A stretch of DNA of 63,311 bases, filler included, from Licmophora abbreviata (taxonomy: Eukaryota): assembly GCA_900291995.1 (NCBI GenBank). It is 25 parts of 25 records of this genome, joined end to end, with 100 filler letters (N's around TTAATTAATTAA, not from the genome) between each part and the next. Parts side by side here need not be neighbours in the genome. Positions count along the whole stretch, not along the records: positions 35,502 to 42,325 come from OLMU01005933.1; positions 42,426 to 45,586 come from OLMU01005934.1; 23 more parts are not named here. One strand, 5' to 3'. How positions within the stretch are numbered: the stretch's first letter is position 1; every line of letters starts with the position of its first letter. Both the position numbers and the translations under genes were made by a program. This document shows positions 34,015-42,515 of the stretch, one piece after another. Below the pieces are notes generated by a model, which ran no database searches, was not told the origin of the DNA, and saw nothing but the letters and a program-made list of their open reading frames with translations.

Positions 34015-35274
34015 TCACCCGGGCGGCCATTGCATCTGACGCCCGCCTACGACGTGAACGTGGAGATGATAGATCTCTTGTCCGCCATCACTTCCATCGT
34101 TGACAACTATCCTCGCCCCGTCGCCAAAGCCAAGAGATTTATCGTTGGCGACTTCTCCAGCCGCCAACATCAGGCGACCCAGTATTTCAATGTGTTCAGG
34201 TGACGCCTTGCGCAGGTTGGTTAGTCCGCTGCGATCCTTGGGAATGATCAGAACATGTACTGGGGCAGCAGGCGCAATGGACTTGAAGGCAATCGTCGTA
34301 GAATCCTCATATACAATATCCGCTGGGACCTCGCGATTGATGATTTTGTCGAAGATTGTCTCCGCTTCCTCGTCTCGTACTCCTGCGAGCCAAATGGTAT
34401 CCCATCGGTCTTTACTTTCCCAGTTTCGCAGTCCCCCCATGATCTCCTCATGAACTTTCCGAAAGTCGCGATCCGATGAGATCATAGCGTTGTACCACGC
34501 TTTAATCTTGGGAGGCAGTGGTTCGACAACATCGAATTTTGGGAGCATGTAGTTGGCAAACACCATGCTCGGAAACAGTGTCGCATCGGCCAGTGAAACT
34601 TCGTTGCCACACAGATACATCCCATCGCCCACTATAAGGTCGTCAATTATTTGTAACTGCCTCTGATACTCTGCAATGGCACCCTTTCGAGTTCCATAAG
34701 CACCAAAGGGCGGGCTCGCCTTGTAGAGACACCCTTGGATGGTCGTCAAGTACATGTCGTGAGTACGAGCAATGAGATTGGATCTTGGGTTGTCGGGTTG
34801 GAAGGAGGGGGCTCTGTCAACGTACTCGGACATGAGATATCGGCAAATCGTATCACTTTCGGGCAGGTGCAGGTCCGTTTCCGTTACTGTCATGGCAGGC
34901 ATCTTTCCTTGCGGGTTGATCGAAATGTAGTCTGGTGATTTCAAGCCCCCAAGTTCGAAGGGCGAGACTATCTTGACCTCAGATTCATCAAGATTTTTCT
35001 ATTGTATAGGATTGACAATGTCAGAAAGGCCATTTAAAAATTACGTATTGAACCGATAATCATTCTAGACGAACTGATTCGTTGTCGCACGTACCTTGTA
35101 GACGATGATGCGGCATCGGGCACCGTTGTTCGAAACAGGAAGATCATACAGTTTGTGTCTTGTCACTGAATTTTCCACCGCTGACATGGACAGTGCTGAA
35201 AAAGCGGCCACCATGGCGGTTGAAAGAAGCAGTATAGCAAAAGAACGGAAGAGGTGTGTCCGCATGGGTGCCAT
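34015..35274 (-). CDS. Glutathione S-transferase - HIT (HINT-like) fusion protein with bipartite plastid-type presequence; 2 exons
   Basis: Intron 34999-35094 keeps frame. GST-N: SNNGARCRI, INPQGKMP, LPESDTICRYL. GST-C: YLCGNEVSLADA. HIT: TIFDKII..VPADIVYED, APVHVLIIPK, HLHVHVVGGRQMQWPPG. Confidence 0.88.
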
Positions 35275-35501: not shown

Positions 35502-38500
35502 TCTGCTGCTGGAAGGAGACCGCGAACAGCGAGGGGTCCGGATGCTAGTTTGTATGCAGCGGCGGCCATGGAAGTGGTGAATGTGCTGGCAGACCAGGCC
35601 GGCGACGGGGGACAAGGGAAGGAAGGGTCATGGCGACCAAAGAGGAAGGCGTGGGCAAAGTAGCCGATGTCACCCAGGTGACCAACGGTGAAAGGTAGGA
35701 GTTGGATACGGCTGTGAGTGAGGGCAGCAATATCAAGGTGGCTGTTTGGGTTGTTGGCACGTCCCTCGAATTTTTGCTTCGCTGCTTGCTCGTGCCGGGA
35801 TCTAGCGGAAACCGCTTTGGGTGTTGGGGCAGAGAGCAAGGAGGGAGTAGGGGGAGGTGGAATAGTAACGTCAATGGCGACGTAACGGGAAGGAGCAAGG
35901 GAAGTAGCAGGAAGATAGGTGGGAGAAAGGGTAACACCAATGTCAGCAGGACGGGAGTTGGAGTCCGGAATGAGATGAGTTGGTTCGGAGACTACACAGT
36001 GATGGGAAGAAGCATAGCCGGCTAAGGGGCAGAGCTTGCGGCACAGAAGAGTAAGTGTGTCGCGAAGTGTGTGATGAAGGGGGGTTTTGCTTGAATGGCG
36101 ACATTGAAACAGGTGGTCGCCCAGCGGATCTAAGCGTTTGCCACAGGTGCAAAGCTGATCTTGAAGAACGGAGGGGAGGCACGGAAGTCGCAGCTTACGT
36201 TGCATAGCGATGCGAAAAGTAGCATTGTCAAGACGATTAGCCACCACGCGACGGGAGGTTTGGGTGAGCGCGAGACTAATCCATGGGGTAGTCGTTGCCT
36301 GAGCATTGGCAGAAAGGGAAGGGGATGTATGAAGAGGCGAATGGCGAACTTGCTTGAAATGCTTGCGGCAAACATCGCGCTGAAGGCCAGGAAGGTTGAG
36401 GCGCGTGGCCAGTTGAGTGAGATGATAGGAAGCGTCGCCGAGGGAAGGATCCGGGCCGCGTCGAGGGGGCCGAATGTGAAACTTGGCAAGCGCGGTGCCG
36501 AAGGAATGGTATAGATGGAAGAGGCGAGAGGACGGAGCTTGCCACCCGGCGAGAAGGAACCGAAGTGGAGCAGGAAGGTGAGCAGTAGGGGTGCCAGGCA
36601 AAATAATACCGTTGGTGGCAATGCGGAGGGAACGTGTGACCGAGATGACAAACGCCGGAATAGCGGAGACGGAAGGCGCCCGGTAACCAAGGCCCCCAAG
36701 ATTAGAAGGCAGAATTGCTAAATGACTGGCATGCGGTGGCAGGGTGTCACTGACATCAGTGATGCGAGTGAGGAAGGAGTGCAGGATAGCATCCGCACGA
36801 GCAACAAAAGGAGAGCGCCAAGCAAAGAGAGATGTTGACGCCGCAGGAGAGGCGAGATCAGCGTTGTGATAGAAGTCGGTAGCCAAGAGGTGGGAGATCG
36901 TAGTTTGCAAACATAAGCGATAGACAGTAGACTGAGTCTGTAAATCCGGGAGTGTGCGTAAGAGAGCGTTGACATAGTGTAGCAGGGCGTCAGCTTTTGT
37001 TTGGAGGAAATGAGCCGCAAAAGCACGACTCCCAACCGGATGGCCTAGGAGGCGGAGGCCGGAAGTGAGTTCGGCCGCTGGCGGAAGAATAGAAGCTGCT
37101 TGACGCAGTGCGGCAGCGATGGCCGACGGGCAAAGCGGATGAACAGAAGGCGAAGCACCCGAGACACTAGAAAGGAATTTTGTCTTGGAAAGGTTAAGGC
37201 AAACTCCATGGGGAGCACCCAGTTCCGCAAAGCGGCGAAGGAAGAAAGGAAGATCAATGGTGTGCAGCAAAGCCAAAGTATCATCCAGATACTGCATTGA
37301 GGCAGAAGGCGCTGCAGCGGGATCGTGAGAAGTACGCGAAGACGCTGTGGGGGAGCGAAGGCGAATGCGAGTTCGGAGTTCTTCGTGTAAAGGACGAAGC
37401 ACTGCAAAAAGGACCAAGGAAGCATAGAATGGGGCCATGGGGTCTCCTTGCGCGAAACCTTCAGGTTGCGTGAATGAGTCCCAGTGGTTAGTTGTGTCGC
37501 GATACCAGCATGTGTTATGGTCGGCGTAGATAAGATCGAAGAATGGGAGAAGGGAAGGAAAGTGAACCGAAAGCATATGACGGCAAGAGTCGCGAGAACA
37601 TGCATTGAACATGTTAGTAATGTCCAAGGCAAGAAGGGCATATGCGGGAGGAGGTGCGTCCCCATCTGCAGAAGGAGACAAAAATTGATCAATAAAAGCA
37701 TGAGCGGCGTGGACAATGGCGTCCATGCCCCCTGGAATACCAATGCCCAATTGCCCTTCAGTGATGAGAAGACTAGCAAATTGTTGGCCCTGTAGGTGCA
37801 TTAACAGGGCTCCAAGGACTCTGCGATAACTGGTACCAGCCCCAATAGGACGGAGTTTGGAAGGATCAAGGGGGTCCTTGTGTAGCGCAAGGAAGTAGTT
37901 ACTGCGTAGTAGAGAAGTGGCCAAAGGAGGAAGCTCTCCCGCAAATAACACATCGGCCACAGCCACAAAACTCGCAGCATATGGAAAGGTAGGAGAATCG
38001 CCGGGGTTGAGGGGGGGTTCAGAATGAAGAATCATGTCACGGAGCACATCCGTGTAGTCGCCAAAAGGACCAGCGGCAGAACCACGTTTCAATTTGCGGC
38101 ATGCAGCAAATAGGGCCGAATGAGGAATAGGAATGGAGGTGGTCTGACGGACAGCACGGGATTGGGAACGGGTGCGAGGGCCCGCGGTAGTGGGAAGGGT
38201 CGTAGAAGCCGGAGAGCAACGGGGAGGGTAGAGGGAGCTAATGCGATCCAAATTGTCGGCATCGAGGCACGCCACGGGCATAGTAGAGTCAATGCGAGCG
38301 GCACAAGCAGAGAAGTTGTCAAGGTCAGCCGCTGCTTGGGCGTGACGGTTGGAGCGAGAACTGTATTCATCAGTAGGAACGAGGGTAGCATCGACTGCAT
38401 CATCACGGATACGGTGGCTTGCCGATGGAGGGTCAATGGAGTAAAGGGCATCATAAAGAAGACGGATGCGACCTTCTTCAAACAGCTTGAGACGAGCGGC

Positions 38501-39169
38501 CACCACGGCATCAGGGGAACGTGTCTTAGCATGTTTGCCTGGATGAAGGATAAGAGGTTGAAATAAAAACAACAGGACAAAAGGGAGGTCGGAGGAACGT
38601 TGAAAGGTTGGCAAAGGCGACACTGACGGGGGTGTGTCAAAACGGGGTACGGTTGCCGCGCACGCTTGGTGAAGGCGAGATAAAGTGGCGAAAAGGGCAT
38701 GATGAGTGGCGCGTGACAGTGAGTAATAAATGTTGGTACGGATGTTGGGAGGTGAAGGGGGATGGACTTCAAAGTGGGCCTGCAACCATGCAAAGCTATC
38801 GTGCCATGCCGTGGGGGAAGCAGAGGGAAAGTGCTGAGTGAACACCGCTGATGTTGTGGAGGAGCGGGTGTAAGAATGCATCGTACGGTGATGTTGGCGT
38901 AAACCAGATGCGTGTAGATAAATAGTATTAGGATCAGAATTAAAGCGATGATTACAATCCCGACAGAAGGATAAAGGACAGGAAGAAGAGGATGGAATGT
39001 CAGCAGGGCGGTGTAAAGTATGCTGAGGGTCACTGCGAAGATGCGAACGAAGAAGTTTGAGACATTCTGTTCGCTGGGCGGAAGGAGCCGAGCGCCTAGT
39101 ATCCGGGGTCGTCCACCGACATGTAGGAAGGGGACAACACAGGGGCGCCGGGGGCGTTGAAAGACTCAT
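35502..39169 (-). CDS. Retrotransposon ORF2: C2H2 zinc fingers, reverse transcriptase, zinc knuckle, PD-(D/E)xK restriction-like endonuclease (3' truncated)
   Basis: CPLPTC..HLRSDPQH and CRDC..HHRTMH; RT motifs SAAGP.G, KLRPIG, QLGIG..GG, LDITNMFN, GFAQGDP, YLDD (37280-37291), LNLSKT, LLGHPVG, LP..GGLG; CTCG..DPLGDHLFQC..H; RPAD..AIDVT..K. Confidence 0.92.
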
Positions 39170-42100
39170 GTGGCGTTCGCTGCCGGACTCGGGTCTGTCG
39201 GGACCGAAGGCGGTAGCTGGGAATCAGTAGGGTTGCTAGCAGCAGCAGCAACATCATTGAAGAACAATGCAACGTCTGCAAGCGTGAAGTGCGGAGCAAT
39301 AGTCGGATGTTGAGCAACACCAAGAAGCAAGCGCGAGGTCTCACCAAGATCAGGGAGGGGCGCTGAAGCAGATGTTGGGTACAAGGCATCGACCATGTGA
39401 TGAAGATGCAAGAAAGGGAAAAGAGCCGAGGTTTCAGGATGAGCTCCAGTGTGTGCGAGAGTGCGAAACCAAACAAGGTGAGTAGGCGAGGTTTCCATGC
39501 GGGACTGCAAACGACCCAGAATTGCTCGGTCGCGAGGGGAAATATGGTTGCCACGTAGAGAAATGGGAAGGCGACTCTCAGGGGAGGGCGGCAAAACCGA
39601 AGATTCCTGCGAGAATTGGCTGGCCGGTAAGGAGTCGTCAGCAGGTGTTGGTGAGTGGTAGGTATAAGGCACATCCGAGTCAGCGAGGAGGTCGGTGGAG
39701 TTGTCATCGAAGGCATCCGGCGGTGAAGAAATATGCTCCGCATCGTCAGCGTCGGCATCTAGCGGATGGTCAACTGTCATAGGGGAAGGAGAACGAGAGC
39801 GAGTGGGAAGCAACGGGGGGCCGTCCCGTACAGCCCTGGCAAGGGAGGAGAGACGTGGGGACGTTGGTTGGGTGTCGACGGCAGGTGGGAGTGGGCCAGA
39901 TGGAGGCGTCGTGTTCCCGTCATGGGAAAGCTGTTGCGGTGACTGCGGGGAGGCGCGTTGTTCCCAACACGTGGGGACAGGCGAGGGAGGAGGGACGGGC
40001 GAAGCAGAAGGGGGCGTGGGCACAGATGCGGTTGTTGTAGCCGTTGGAGAAGAACGGGCAGAATCCGAGTTGAGGCGCGAAGGGCGCGTCGGGGTGACAG
40101 CCACTGCCACAGTAGGGCGTGAACGCTTATGCACTGGCTGAGGATCAAGGGAGACAGCCGAAACGTCGAGTGAGGAACCGCGTGAGAACTCAGTAGTGTG
40201 AGGCGTACCGGGACGCTGGGCACAGAAGTCAGCAAAACGCGCTGCACGTGTATTCCGCTGCGCACGAAGAGAACCGCGGGAAGATGTGGGAGCGGTGACC
40301 GAGGCCGGAGAAGGAACGGATTCCAACGGAGCCGTCGGAAGGAGAAGGTCGCGAGGAAGGAGCATGTGAAGCGAGTTGGTGCGACTGAATCGGAGTGTGT
40401 CCTGAGTGACAAAAAAACCGATCTCATAGCGGGCAGGATAAGCAAAGGCGTCATCATAGACTGGGGCCAAGCAACGAACCGAGGGAAGACCCAACAGACG
40501 TTGGATATCGCGCGACGAGGTCAACTGGACAGGGACTGGGCGCCACAAAGTATGGTCAGCTTGCAACTGATCCAACACAGCTGATTGAGTGGTAGTCGCC
40601 AAGGTAAGAGAATGAGACGAAGCAACCGCTTCGACACCCACTGGAATACCATACAAGCGTAGGTTGTGTGATCCCACAAAGGAAGCGAAGAGTTTGAAAT
40701 GAGCCAAGGATTGGGCATGAATGCCATAGAAAGGGAGGTGCTTGGGACCGTAGCGGGCCAAGACGCGAAACCCTATAACCCGGTTGAAGGCATAGAAATC
40801 GGATCCCAATGAGAGGCTAGTGGGATGAGTGAAGGAAGGCGTGAGTTGAGCCTCCTGTGCTTCATGATAATGCTCCCACAGGGAGTACAACAGGCCTTGA
40901 AGAGCACGGTAGGAGGTGCCGAAACGGGGCGGTGCCGGACCTAAGAGTAAACCTTGAAGTTGATGTTCAAAGGTGTTAACCGGGGGAAGGAAGATGTCCA
41001 AGAATGGCGCCCAGGGGTTGCCGGAAGGGGGATTGGGGCGAGAGCGACCGGGCGTAGGCGGTGGGTCAGTAGGATGGAAATGGTGCCAGCGTTGAGTCAC
41101 AAAGGCAATGATTTGGTCTTCGAACAACTCAGAGTCATATTGGTCTTCTGTAGCCGCGGGAGCGAGGATAATGCGATATCGTTGACAATACGTAGGTCGT
41201 GAAGAAATGGTCTCTTGTTGAATGGGACCAGTCGAGTAGTCATAAACGTATGCAGTGACATAGGCATGAGCATGAGCAAGGAGGGACTTATCAATAATGG
41301 ACGTCAATGCTTTGGCGGAGAATTCTTCAGCCGGGGGGGAGAGGCCAAAGCGATCCTGAAGGTGGATTCGAGCGTCAAGGCATCGAAAATCGGCCGGACC
41401 ATCAGGGGGTGAAGGCGGCGGAAACGAATGTTGGAATGGCGAGTATCCGTCGTGAGCTGACATAGTCGTGCAGGGAGAGAGAGAGAAACAGCTAGCCCAA
41501 AAAAGAAATGCGGGCAAAAGCGGGGAACGCGTCGGGACAGAAGAAATGCGAGAAGCAAAAAAGGTGGGAAGCCTGGGAAGGGAAAAGAAAGACAGTGCCA
41601 GCGAGAAGCGGGAAGTCGTGAATGGGCGAAGAACCCATCGTACCAATGTACAGAAAGGAAAGCAGAGGAAAAAGCGGAAGAATATTGGACATATACAGAC
41701 ACGTAGGGTAAAGATTTCCTGTGCCAGCTGGAAAGAGGAAGTCCCGCAAGAGTCGACCCGGGACTTGAGCGGAAACGTTAAGTGTGGAACACAAGGCTCC
41801 CGTAAAGAGCACAAAACAGAAGTCCCACAAAAGAAAGAAAGAGACGCCGACTCATGAGACATAGTGACAAATCGTGAGAAAGAAAAGGGAGAGTGTACGG
41901 GCAAATGTAGCACATGTACAATGTGGCCCGCAAAGAGTACCACTGCAGTCGTGTAGAACAAGGAAAGGAAAGGGGAAAGGAGTTCGAAATGGGAAAACGC
42001 GGGAGGAGGTAAAGCGGGGCAAAAATGCTGCGAGAGTAAAGAACACAACATAATGAGAAGGATGGACATCGGGGAATAAGCCACCCAAAAGGAGAGGAGG

Positions 42101-42318
42101 GAGAAAGACATGTCGCAAGGGGGGGAGGGCAAGCGAGAGCGAGAGAAAGGGTAAAAGAAGAGGGAAGAGAGGGTGTGGTCGGAGCCCAGAAGGATGGAGG
42201 CAGTTTCGAATTCCCAAAAAAGGGAGGCGATAACAGGAGAGCTGTTAGGTGGAGCAGGAGGACCGGGACCCGTGGGGCGAACCGGGGAAGGCAGGAAACC
42301 ATAGGTGTTGGCCATCAT
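39166..42318 (-). CDS. Retrotransposon ORF1, unknown function (1050 aa from ATG 42318, or 765 aa from ATG 41463)
   Basis: Uninterrupted frame; its TGA overlaps the ORF2 ATG (ATGA at 39169-39166). It has a globular-looking middle region, a Pro/Ser-rich spacer and a helical-looking C-terminal region. Confidence 0.75.
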   Translation of the reverse strand: MMANTYGFLPSPVRPTGPGPPAPPNSSPVIASLFWEFETASILLGSDHTLSSLFFYPFSRSRLPSPPCDMSFSLLSFWVAYSPMSILLIMLCSLLSQHFCPALPPPAFSHFELLSPFLSLFYTTAVVLFAGHIVHVLHLPVHSPFSFSRFVTMSHESASLSFFCGTSVLCSLREPCVPHLTFPLKSRVDSCGTSSFQLAQEIFTLRVCICPIFFRFFLCFPFCTLVRWVLRPFTTSRFSLALSFFSLPRLPTFFASRISSVPTRSPLLPAFLFWASCFSLSPCTTMSAHDGYSPFQHSFPPPSPPDGPADFRCLDARIHLQDRFGLSPPAEEFSAKALTSIIDKSLLAHAHAYVTAYVYDYSTGPIQQETISSRPTYCQRYRIILAPAATEDQYDSELFEDQIIAFVTQRWHHFHPTDPPPTPGRSRPNPPSGNPWAPFLDIFLPPVNTFEHQLQGLLLGPAPPRFGTSYRALQGLLYSLWEHYHEAQEAQLTPSFTHPTSLSLGSDFYAFNRVIGFRVLARYGPKHLPFYGIHAQSLAHFKLFASFVGSHNLRLYGIPVGVEAVASSHSLTLATTTQSAVLDQLQADHTLWRPVPVQLTSSRDIQRLLGLPSVRCLAPVYDDAFAYPARYEIGFFVTQDTLRFSRTNSLHMLLPRDLLLPTAPLESVPSPASVTAPTSSRGSLRAQRNTRAARFADFCAQRPGTPHTTEFSRGSSLDVSAVSLDPQPVHKRSRPTVAVAVTPTRPSRLNSDSARSSPTATTTASVPTPPSASPVPPPSPVPTCWEQRASPQSPQQLSHDGNTTPPSGPLPPAVDTQPTSPRLSSLARAVRDGPPLLPTRSRSPSPMTVDHPLDADADDAEHISSPPDAFDDNSTDLLADSDVPYTYHSPTPADDSLPASQFSQESSVLPPSPESRLPISLRGNHISPRDRAILGRLQSRMETSPTHLVWFRTLAHTGAHPETSALFPFLHLHHMVDALYPTSASAPLPDLGETSRLLLGVAQHPTIAPHFTLADVALFFNDVAAAASNPTDSQLPPSVPTDPSPAANAT

Positions 42319-42515
42319 GGTTGTTNNNNNNNNNNNNNNNNNNNNNNNNNNNNNNNNNNNNNNNNNNNNTTAATTAATTAANNNNNNNNNNNNNNNNNNN
42401 NNNNNNNNNNNNNNNNNNNNNNNNNTCCAATCTTGCGAATGATGAGGCTATACCACCCGCCGAGGACGATCATTCCTGCAAGGTTGAAGACAATGCGAGT
42501 TATGAGGGCGCCGGT

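What the first reader, a model, noticed from the sequence alone, without database searches (positions are those of the whole stretch)
35502..42325. Intact two-ORF CRE-like (RLE) non-LTR retrotransposon in a diatom-like genome
Seen: a 6.8-kb intronless contig with no stops or frameshifts in ORF1 (up to 1050 aa) or ORF2 (over 1220 aa). ORF2 has two N-terminal C2H2-like fingers, an RT with KLRPIG/QLGIG..GG/QGDP/YLDD, a zinc knuckle and an RPAD..AIDVT endonuclease. No APE, RNase H or integrase is visible. Known: this layout and these motifs match the CRE clade (CRE1/2, SLACS, CZAR, Cnl1, MoTeR), many of which are site-specific. Most RLE elements have one ORF; SLACS and CZAR have a much shorter ORF1. 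Inference: a young, possibly active and possibly site-specific family with unusual architecture, which may be undescribed. Both ends fall in gaps, as expected for a collapsed multicopy repeat.
Basis: partly seen in the sequence, partly recalled or inferred. Interest (0 to 1): 0.8.

Follow-up and report, generated by a model that had tools for sequence, protein, structure and literature searches.

The report
Two-gene R2-like retrotransposon with stop-start junction
This is a jumping gene of the old R2-like kind, normally described as carrying one gene, that here carries a second large gene in front and joins the two with an overlapping stop/start signal and a conserved RNA hairpin, as some viruses do; it appears to insert at scattered AT-rich spots rather than at one fixed target.

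Summary
Real RLE-type (R2-group) non-LTR retrotransposon on the minus strand. ORF1 (1050 aa) and ORF2 (1222 aa, last ~93 codons missing) are stop-free; an ORF2 model matches R2 structures through RT and endonuclease. CRE membership is likely but untested: no named CRE sequence was reachable. Corrections: the flanking 'gaps' are artificial contig linkers; no near-identical second copy was found; site-specificity is not supported (7 of 7 sister-family 3' ends have different AT-rich flanks). Two ORFs are lineage-wide, not unique: 33 of 37 testable metagenomic relatives have an abutting upstream frame. New here: ORF1 stop and ORF2 start overlap as AUGA in 7 of 7 sister families, six bases after a fixed-length 47-nt hairpin element (8 of 8) whose silent sites are invariant while silent sites elsewhere are saturated. 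This points to termination-reinitiation, victorivirus-like; inferred, not assayed. ORF1 has no known family; a weak model suggests a ferredoxin/RRM-like domain. Earlier scan notes cover other CRE-like elements, none this junction. Repbase could not be checked.

The parts
35502..42325 (-). Whole contig G000:C5933 = one retrotransposon copy or family consensus; 5' end probably complete, about 310 nt missing at the 3' end
   Evidence: 5' similarity to sister C6405 starts at about 42320
42263..42278 (-). Conserved 16-nt 5' motif, core of a small hairpin with a three-base loop; lies inside the ORF1 frame
   Evidence: exact in 5 sister 5' ends, 1 further one-mismatch hit unrelated to the element, 1 control hit; folding z-scores not significant
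39166..42318 (-). ORF1, 1050 aa: unconserved F/S/L/P-rich residues 1-285, conserved N-domain 286-665, P/S/T-rich linker, conserved C-domain 911-1050
41464..42318 (-). In-frame, stop-free but unconserved leader of ORF1 (285 codons) between the first AUG and a conserved internal AUG at 41463
   Evidence: open in the ORF1 frame in 5 of 5 sisters, other frames carry 1-8 stops; shuffles open in 10, 3, 125 and 19 of 2000 for the four tested
40327..41463 (-). ORF1 conserved N-domain; first ~150 residues model as a ferredoxin/RRM-like beta-alpha-beta-beta-alpha-beta fold (low confidence)
   Evidence: pLDDT 46.6; best Z 6.6, rmsd 3.8, 106 aligned; tied generic ferredoxin-like folds; homologous to ORF1 of L058 (blastp E 7e-12 in a 24-protein set)
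39176..39222 (-). 47-nt conserved RNA element (invariant ends, covarying hairpin) at the end of ORF1
   Evidence: 8 matches in the genome, all 47 nt, all in sister elements, 0 control matches
39166..39169 (-). AUGA overlap: ORF2 start codon and ORF1 stop codon
   Evidence: 7 of 7 sister junctions that reach this far, always 6 nt after the 47-nt element
35502..39169 (-). ORF2, 1222 aa to the contig end: two C2H2-like fingers, RT, zinc knuckle, restriction-like endonuclease
38876..39136 (-). Two N-terminal C2H2-like zinc fingers of ORF2
   Evidence: conserved in full-length homologues
36944..38146 (-). Reverse transcriptase domain
35620..36151 (-). Zinc knuckle and PD-(D/E)xK restriction-like endonuclease (approximate lower bound)
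   Evidence: motif spacing C-x1-C-x9-H-x3-C-x7-LHH-x28-E-x10-RPAD-x23-D; catalytic positions invariant in 16 sequences; R2 structures align to model residue 841-881

Best explanation
An autonomous RLE-type (R2-group, CRE-like) non-LTR retrotransposon of a bicistronic lineage. One RNA is read from a cap-proximal AUG to give a large ORF1 protein, probably an RNA-binding/packaging protein like L1 ORF1p (inferred). A fraction of ribosomes that stop at the ORF1 UGA restart at the overlapping AUG (AUGA), helped by the 47-nt hairpin element just upstream, and make ORF2 as a separate, rarer protein (inferred from sequence conservation; not assayed). ORF2 nicks DNA with its RLE domain and copies the RNA by target-primed reverse transcription (from established R2 biology and the fold match). 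Insertion is dispersed with a lean to AT-rich or short simple-repeat sites, not into one multicopy gene; 5'-truncated copies arise (shown for sister families, inferred for this one).
For: Domain layout and fold: R2 proteins are the best PDB matches by profile (E 8e-8) and by structure (Foldseek E 4e-12); R2 chains align over 617-637 residues up to model residue 841-881, most L1 chains stop at 600-657. Selection: dN 0.17-0.29 with saturated dS for RT against 6 of 6 sisters; ORF1 N- and C-domains likewise. Junction: AUGA in 7 of 7; element 47 nt in 8 of 8; 18 of 48 columns invariant, including third positions of fourfold codons, whereas 0 of 73 fourfold columns in RT, 0 of 17 in the ORF1 C-domain and 1 of 22 in early ORF2 are invariant; 82% of cells paired, 5 of 14 pairs with two-sided changes; hairpin window z -1.3 to -3.0 in 6 of 6. 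No canonical slippery heptamer in 7 of 7, and sister C6316 has a stop in the ORF2 frame directly before the AUG yet a 1281-codon open ORF2. In 22 distant junctions the ORF1 stop lies 5-53 nt before the first ORF2 cysteine in either frame relation (-1 in 14, +1 in 8), with an AUG within -13..+8 nt in 11, spacings of the kind listed for termination-reinitiation (PMC5972666, passage). Targets.
Against: No translation data. 9 of the 22 distant junctions have no AUG before the first cysteine and 2 have one only 40-71 nt upstream, so non-AUG restart or frameshifting must operate there. The hairpin is not seen in distant relatives (mean z -0.33 over 21 loci). With 66-nt windows the folding z-scores are weak (-0.16 to -2.35); the covariation score (5 of 500 shuffles) is a level that related sequences can reach without structure, and the structure was drawn from these sequences. 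The ORF2 frame upstream of the AUG reads as a conserved-looking F/Y-P-A-T...G-S-E, and the one variable base of the 5' motif is a third position in that frame, as dual coding would give. No complementarity of the motifs to the host 18S rRNA. The 3' junction of this very family is missing, so its own target is unseen. ORF1 fold is low confidence.
Confidence: 0.62

Rival explanations
1. Same element, but ORF2 is reached by a programmed -1 (or +2) frameshift at the start of the 47-nt element, giving an ORF1-ORF2 fusion; the hairpin is the stimulator and the invariant bases reflect dual coding.
For: ORF2 lies in the -1 frame; its frame is open for 18-44 codons upstream of the AUG in 6 of 7 sisters and reads as a conserved-looking peptide; 9 of 22 distant junctions lack an AUG.
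Against: No canonical slippery heptamer in 7 of 7; the hairpin begins with no spacer; C6316 has an in-frame stop just before the AUG; AUG and UGA both invariant in 7 of 7 despite saturated silent sites; distant relatives use both -1 and +1 frame relations.
Confidence: 0.15
2. The 47-nt element is not a translation signal but a binding site for ORF1p/ORF2p, an internal promoter or a processing site, and ORF2 is made from a separate RNA or by unassisted reinitiation as proposed for L1.
For: Its ends are conserved in sequence rather than by pairing (invariant A opposite U/A/C); it is absent from distant relatives that still have abutting ORFs; no 18S complementarity.
Against: Fixed length (8 of 8) and fixed 6-nt distance to AUGA (7 of 7) are what ribosome positioning predicts; AUGA plus an upstream structure is the victorivirus cassette (PMC6631646, passage).
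Confidence: 0.15
3. A site-specific family (telomere, snRNA, rDNA, tRNA or one microsatellite) collapsed from many identical copies.
For: Known CRE relatives are site-specific (PMC12278014, PMC12857005, passages); many relatives end in a motif resembling a telomere unit followed by short simple repeats; targets in unbinned repeats would be invisible; two full-length sister contigs stop within 10 nt of the 3' motif.
Against: 7 of 7 sister 3' flanks differ; same-family pairs in metagenomes have different flanks (L057/L058 97.5% identical, L062/L128 99.5%); no Rfam or tRNA hit near the ends; near-identical copies of related families lie on many different large contigs of another assembly.
Confidence: 0.08

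Closest known systems
CRE clade: SLACS, CZAR, CRE1/2 (trypanosomatids), Cnl1, MoTeR, FoTeR (fungi)
   Same: RT followed by zinc knuckle and RLE; N-terminal zinc fingers (PMC12278014, PMC12857005, passages); knuckle-E-RPAD-D order kept.
   Different: Those are site-specific (spliced leader, telomere), with one ORF in most species, a poly(A) tail and target duplications (PMC12278014, passage). Here: 1050-aa ORF1, AUGA overlap, no poly(A), dispersed flanks; RHD/N motif reads LHH/LHN and knuckle spacing is x9 rather than x6-8.
CRE-1_Ec32 of the brown alga Ectocarpus (PMC12477816; passages and supplement rows)
   Same: Stramenopile host, 4042 dispersed copies, (CA)n 3' end, much like the simple-repeat ends of relatives here.
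   Different: Listed as a single RT-EN ORF in 4363 bp (5' end possibly incomplete). No sequence comparison was possible.
R2 elements (R2Bm 8gh6/8ibw, R2Tg 9dou/9nl3, 9nl2)
   Same: Best profile and structure matches over RT and RLE.
   Different: 12-14% identity only; R2 is single-ORF and targets 28S rDNA; no ribozyme family matched here.
SART1 and LINE-1 (APE-type, two ORFs, ORF2 by termination-reinitiation)
   Same: Bicistronic RNA with ORF2 start tied to the ORF1 stop (PMC5972666, PMC10275272, PMC3894237; passages).
   Different: They use APE. SART1 has UAAUG with the needed structure downstream; L1 has a 63-nt spacer. Here the overlap is AUGA and the conserved structure is upstream.
Victorivirus HvV190S stop/restart cassette
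   Same: AUGA with an RNA structure immediately upstream, 38 nt sufficient (PMC6631646, passage).
   Different: A fungal dsRNA virus using an H-type pseudoknot; here a simple hairpin with invariant flanks in a retrotransposon; no homology implied.
Repbase diatom families Cre-1_FCy and Ambal (names and features recalled, from no call)
   Same: Diatom non-LTR elements placed near CRE; Ambal is recalled as two-ORF.
   Different: Ambal is recalled as APE + RT + RNase H, which this element lacks. Cre-1_FCy could be of this very lineage; Repbase was not available, so this is the main open novelty risk.

Membership tests
RLE-type (R2-group) non-LTR retrotransposons | Non-LTR-type RT | tested here: met
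   R2 and L1 RTs top the PDB profile and fold searches; Pfam RVT_1 weak for this protein, over the cut-off for relatives L058 and L072
RLE-type (R2-group) non-LTR retrotransposons | C-terminal zinc knuckle plus PD-(D/E)xK endonuclease | tested here: met
   motifs and spacing, invariant in alignment A4, R2 chains align through the RLE region
RLE-type (R2-group) non-LTR retrotransposons | No APE domain; no terminal repeats | tested here: met
   no APE, RNase H or integrase Pfam hit at E<=1; ORF2 N-terminus is zinc fingers; no terminal direct or inverted repeat in two near-full-length sisters or this contig
RLE-type (R2-group) non-LTR retrotransposons | Single ORF (as stated in PMC3636483 and PMC3894237) | tested here: not met
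   two ORFs under purifying selection; 33 of 37 testable relatives likewise
CRE clade | RT groups with SLACS/CZAR/CRE1/2/Cnl1/MoTeR in a tree | not testable with these tools
   no named CRE protein came back; the tree has unnamed rows only
CRE clade | REL consensus of SLACS/CRE/MoTeR as printed in PMC12857005 | tested here: inconclusive
   order of motifs fits; spacings x1, x3, x28, x10 fit, x9 (6-8 expected), x7 (9-10), LHH for RHD/N and x23 (12-14) do not
CRE clade | Site-specific insertion with target duplication and poly(A) tail (trypanosomatid members) | tested here: not met
   sister families: 7 different flanks, no poly(A); no duplication seen at two old truncated copies; not observable for this family; dispersed CRE families are also described (PMC12477816)
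Ambal clade (features recalled) | APE, RT and RNase H in ORF2 | tested here: not met
   searches show zinc fingers-RT-RLE; the definition itself is from recall
Termination-reinitiation (stop-start) systems | Stop and start codons overlapping or close | tested here: met
   AUGA in 7 of 7
Termination-reinitiation (stop-start) systems | Calicivirus TURBS motif complementary to 18S rRNA | tested here: not met
   no exact complement of either invariant motif (6 nt or longer) in the 18S gene of the same assembly; only wobble-rich matches
Termination-reinitiation (stop-start) systems | ORF2 output depends on termination at the ORF1 stop | not testable with these tools
   needs a reporter assay
L1-type ORF1p (RRM-bearing) | RRM/ferredoxin-like RNA-binding domain | tested here: inconclusive
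   model pLDDT 46.6; residues 20-165 match many ferredoxin-like folds at Z 5-6.6, none standing out; no Pfam, PDB or homologue hit by sequence

The most novel reading that the evidence does not exclude
A deep, so far undescribed lineage of RLE retrotransposons in marine algae (probably diatoms) gained a large ORF1 independently of the APE-type LINEs, gave up strict targeting, and expresses ORF2 by stop-start reinitiation; in this genome's branch the signal is a new class of upstream cis-acting RNA element, neither TURBS nor victorivirus pseudoknot, the first such element for an RLE retrotransposon. That would show that the L1-like package (ORF1 chaperone, coupled translation, dispersed insertion) does not need the APE endonuclease.
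Probability: 0.35. Interest if true: 0.75.

Novelty: new variant of a known kind. Interest (0 to 1): 0.55.

Why it matters
Reviews describe 'ancient' RLE retrotransposons as single-ORF and site-specific and 'young' APE elements as two-ORF and dispersed (PMC3894237, PMC3636483; passages). This lineage crosses that line, so it bears on whether ORF1 came before or apart from the endonuclease swap. The junction gives a compact, directly testable 57-nt cassette with eight natural variants for studying how eukaryotic ribosomes reinitiate after a long ORF, and a possible bicistronic expression part for diatoms. At least 7 diverged families under purifying selection coexist in one 29-Mb assembly, one with a 98.9%-identical truncated copy, so the group has been an active source of insertions.

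Tried and rejected
Copy number and termini from public runs: 6 runs listed, all small shares, no RNA holder on record; 4 of 6 laid, giving only short pieces (151-349 nt identical, others 80-90%), none reaching an end, so no depth or flank information. Own-genome searches with the two contig ends found no overlapping contig. Named references for a tree: none; viral contigs held no relative. ORF1 homologues: none at E<=0.01 among 8000 candidates of 420-1339 aa; ESM Atlas gave only unnamed clusters at 0.91-0.92; Foldseek no match at E<=0.001; profile comparison with the ORF1 of the L072/L088 branch was inconclusive (probability 4%, E 0.009). My first reading that ORF1 starts at 41463 and the leader is a UTR was dropped. 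Ribozyme at the 5' end or junction: no Rfam match at E<=1; a by-eye HDV-like parse failed. TURBS-type 18S pairing: not found. Target duplications: none seen by eye at C4912, C4471 or L057; these copies may be old. Tandem repeats in the element are trivial; no CpG or TpA loss relative to the window. Literature: ten searches found no description of two-ORF RLE elements in diatoms or of stop-start translation in RLE elements; the library lacks Repbase Reports and most subscription papers, so this is weak.
Full report
What was checked. The finding is one contig, G000:C5933, of a 29.2-Mb assembly in 7734 contigs. All contigs of the window are joined by the same artificial linker, so the flanking 'gaps' and the neighbouring genes say nothing about the element. 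Both ORFs lie on the minus strand and are stop-free: ORF1 42318-39166 (1050 aa) and ORF2 39169-35502 (1222 aa, open). Sister elements show that about 93 codons and a ~35-nt tail are missing at the 3' end. The host is a eukaryote (18S gene in the assembly); 'diatom' rests on two ESM Atlas clusters whose few labelled members are mostly Bacillariophyta and on my recall of diatom 18S, not on a classification.

Class of element. Pfam gives only a weak RVT_1. A profile of 16 relatives finds R2 proteins first in the PDB (E 8e-8). An AlphaFold2 model of ORF2 residues 342-1222 (pLDDT 78) matches R2Bm and R2Tg best by Foldseek (E 4e-12); in VIA-align R2 and L1 chains tie in Z (about 17-19), but R2 chains align over 617-637 residues to the end of the model, whereas most L1 chains stop before the endonuclease region. 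No terminal repeats were found in this contig or two near-full-length sisters. So it is an RLE-type non-LTR element. Whether it is in the CRE clade could not be tested: no named CRE protein was returned, and the printed SLACS/CRE/MoTeR endonuclease consensus (PMC12857005, passage) fits in order but only partly in spacing.

Family context. The assembly holds 22 further matches at 67-79% nucleotide identity and none closer. Seven own-genome RT sequences form one clade (SH-aLRT 100, long stem; 130-row quick tree without named references). Against 6 of 6 sisters dN is 0.17-0.29 and dS is saturated; both conserved ORF1 domains behave alike. The family is therefore functional in origin, and its open frames suggest a young copy or consensus, but no second copy of this family was seen and reads gave no depth. 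One sister family has a 98.9%-identical 5'-truncated copy; two near-full-length sisters carry a frameshift each in ORF2, one also in ORF1.

Two ORFs are the rule in the lineage. Of 80 metagenomic loci, 39 include the ORF2 N-terminus and 37 have 200 or more bases upstream. In 25 of 37 an upstream frame of 200 or more codons (up to 1501) ends at the start of ORF2, in 8 more the frame is open to the contig start (72-162 codons, weak evidence), and 4 show only 71-185 codons (L076 counted). Some rows are near-duplicates. The ORF1 of this element is detectably related only to that of L055/L057/L058; a link to the L072/L088 branch is inconclusive. One relative's ORF1 (L076) has an RNase H1 N-terminal hybrid-binding domain.

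ORF1. Residues 286-665 and 911-1050 are conserved among sisters. Residues 1-285 are not, yet in 5 of 5 sister 5' ends the frame is open from an AUG near the 5' end to a second, conserved AUG, while the other frames carry 1-8 stops; shuffles were open in 10, 3, 125 and 19 of 2000 for the four tested. No sequence search names the protein. A low-confidence model (pLDDT 46.6) gives the first 150 conserved residues a ferredoxin/RRM-like topology, matching many such folds at Z 5-6.6: a lead towards an RNA-binding role like L1 ORF1p, not a result.

The junction. The ORF1 stop overlaps the ORF2 start as AUGA in 7 of 7 sister junctions. A pattern for the sequence before it matches 8 places in the genome, all in sister elements, all exactly 47 nt, against 0 control matches; AUGA follows after 6 nt each time (the eighth contig ends first). 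18 of 48 columns are invariant, including fourfold-degenerate positions in either frame, while 0 of 73 such columns in RT, 0 of 17 in the ORF1 C-domain and 1 of 22 in early ORF2 are invariant. The middle folds as a hairpin in every member; 82% of cells pair and 5 of 14 pairs change on both sides. Limits: the covariation score is beaten by 5 of 500 shuffles, a level that relatedness alone can give; the structure was derived from these sequences; z-scores are -1.3 to -3.0 for the 50-nt window but -0.16 to -2.35 for 66-nt windows. Against a frameshift: no canonical slippery heptamer in 7 of 7, and C6316 has a stop in the ORF2 frame just before the AUG but an otherwise open 1281-codon ORF2. For it: the ORF2 frame upstream reads like a conserved peptide. 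In 22 distant junctions (L049 dropped, its ORF2 is frameshifted) the ORF1 stop lies 5-53 nt before the first cysteine of ORF2, in the -1 frame in 14 and +1 in 8; an AUG lies within -13..+8 nt in 11, only further upstream in 2, and nowhere in 9. No shared hairpin is seen there (mean z -0.33, 21 loci). Close stop-start pairs in either frame are the mark of termination-reinitiation (PMC5972666, PMC10275272; passages); AUGA with an upstream structure is the victorivirus cassette (PMC6631646, passage); SART1 uses UAAUG with a downstream structure. TURBS-type pairing with the host 18S rRNA was not found.

Targets. Seven own-genome 3' ends share a 12-nt terminal motif, have no poly(A), and continue into seven different flanks that are 79% AT over 104 bases against 49% for the window; three of these flanks are only 5-10 nt long. 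Two are short 5'-truncated copies inside long contigs, without visible duplications. Metagenomic relatives mostly end 10-45 nt after the stop in short simple repeats such as (AT)n, (CA)n or Cn, and four same-lineage pairs (78-99.5% identical) diverge right after. No Rfam family matched 16 own loci at E<=1 (one locus in both) or 20 metagenomic loci at the gathering score; no tRNA in 18 loci. In another assembly near-identical proteins of related families lie on many contigs of 0.1-2.2 Mb. Dispersed insertion is the best reading; the 3' junction of this family itself is unseen.

Comparison with what is known. Reviews give RLE elements one ORF (PMC3636483, PMC3894237; passages); trypanosomatid CRE elements have one ORF in most species (PMC12278014, passage); Ectocarpus CRE-1_Ec32 is dispersed with a (CA)n end and a single ORF (PMC12477816, passages and three supplement rows). 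Ten searches found no account of two-ORF RLE elements in diatoms. Of 14 papers opened I read matched passages only; PMC4640811, PMC12803021, PMC5029228, PMC13708176, PMC5348765 and PMC2806351 added nothing specific. Repbase diatom entries (Cre-1_FCy, Ambal) are recalled, not seen, and may already hold this layout; unseen supplements may also bear on it. Earlier notes of this scan list eight other CRE-like findings, none on this junction, and none matched this protein or genome; I did not use them.

Verdict. Shown: RLE retrotransposon, two selected ORFs, lineage-wide layout, AUGA plus a nucleotide-conserved 47-nt element, varied flanks in sister families. Inferred: reinitiation, RNA-binding ORF1, dispersal of this family, CRE membership. 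New variant of a known kind; interest 0.55.

Noticed in passing
window 34018-34998 (-): One ORF fuses glutathione S-transferase N and C domains to a HIT domain.
   Followed up: no
whole window: The window is 25 contigs joined by an identical N44 + 12 A/T bases + N44 linker with stops in all frames; adjacency across linkers is not genomic. Other ORFs checked look like housekeeping genes: DEAH helicase, AAA ATPase, glutamate synthase, Cys-tRNA synthetase, glycosyltransferase, PLP enzyme.
   Followed up: partly
L076:2-1855; by eye also L068, L072, L088 ORF1: ORF1 of a distant relative carries an RNase H1 N-terminal (Cauli_VI) hybrid-binding domain, E 8.5e-7; the similar stretches in the others did not score.
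   Followed up: no
window 41464-42318 (-) and sister 5' ends: A ~280-codon in-frame leader is kept free of stops but not conserved in sequence, between two AUGs; relatives (L058, L064, L068, L088) also seem to have long low-complexity leaders before the conserved part. Unexplained.
   Followed up: partly
window 42263-42278 (-): Conserved 16-nt motif about 45-60 nt from the 5' end in 5 of 5 sisters; possible hairpin, promoter or protein-binding site.
   Followed up: partly
G000:C3046 and G000:C2080 (L004, L028): 98.9% identical over 361 nt, the second a 5'-truncated copy; both contigs break at the same base, as for a collapsed young repeat.
   Followed up: no
L062, L063, L070, L082, L086, L096, L104 3' ends: A short 3' motif resembling one C-strand telomere unit precedes the simple-repeat tails in many relatives; possible trace of telomere-targeting ancestry.
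   Followed up: no
L057:564: Similarity to the longer copies L055/L058 begins just before the internal AUG of ORF1, behind an unrelated A/C-rich repeat.
   Followed up: no
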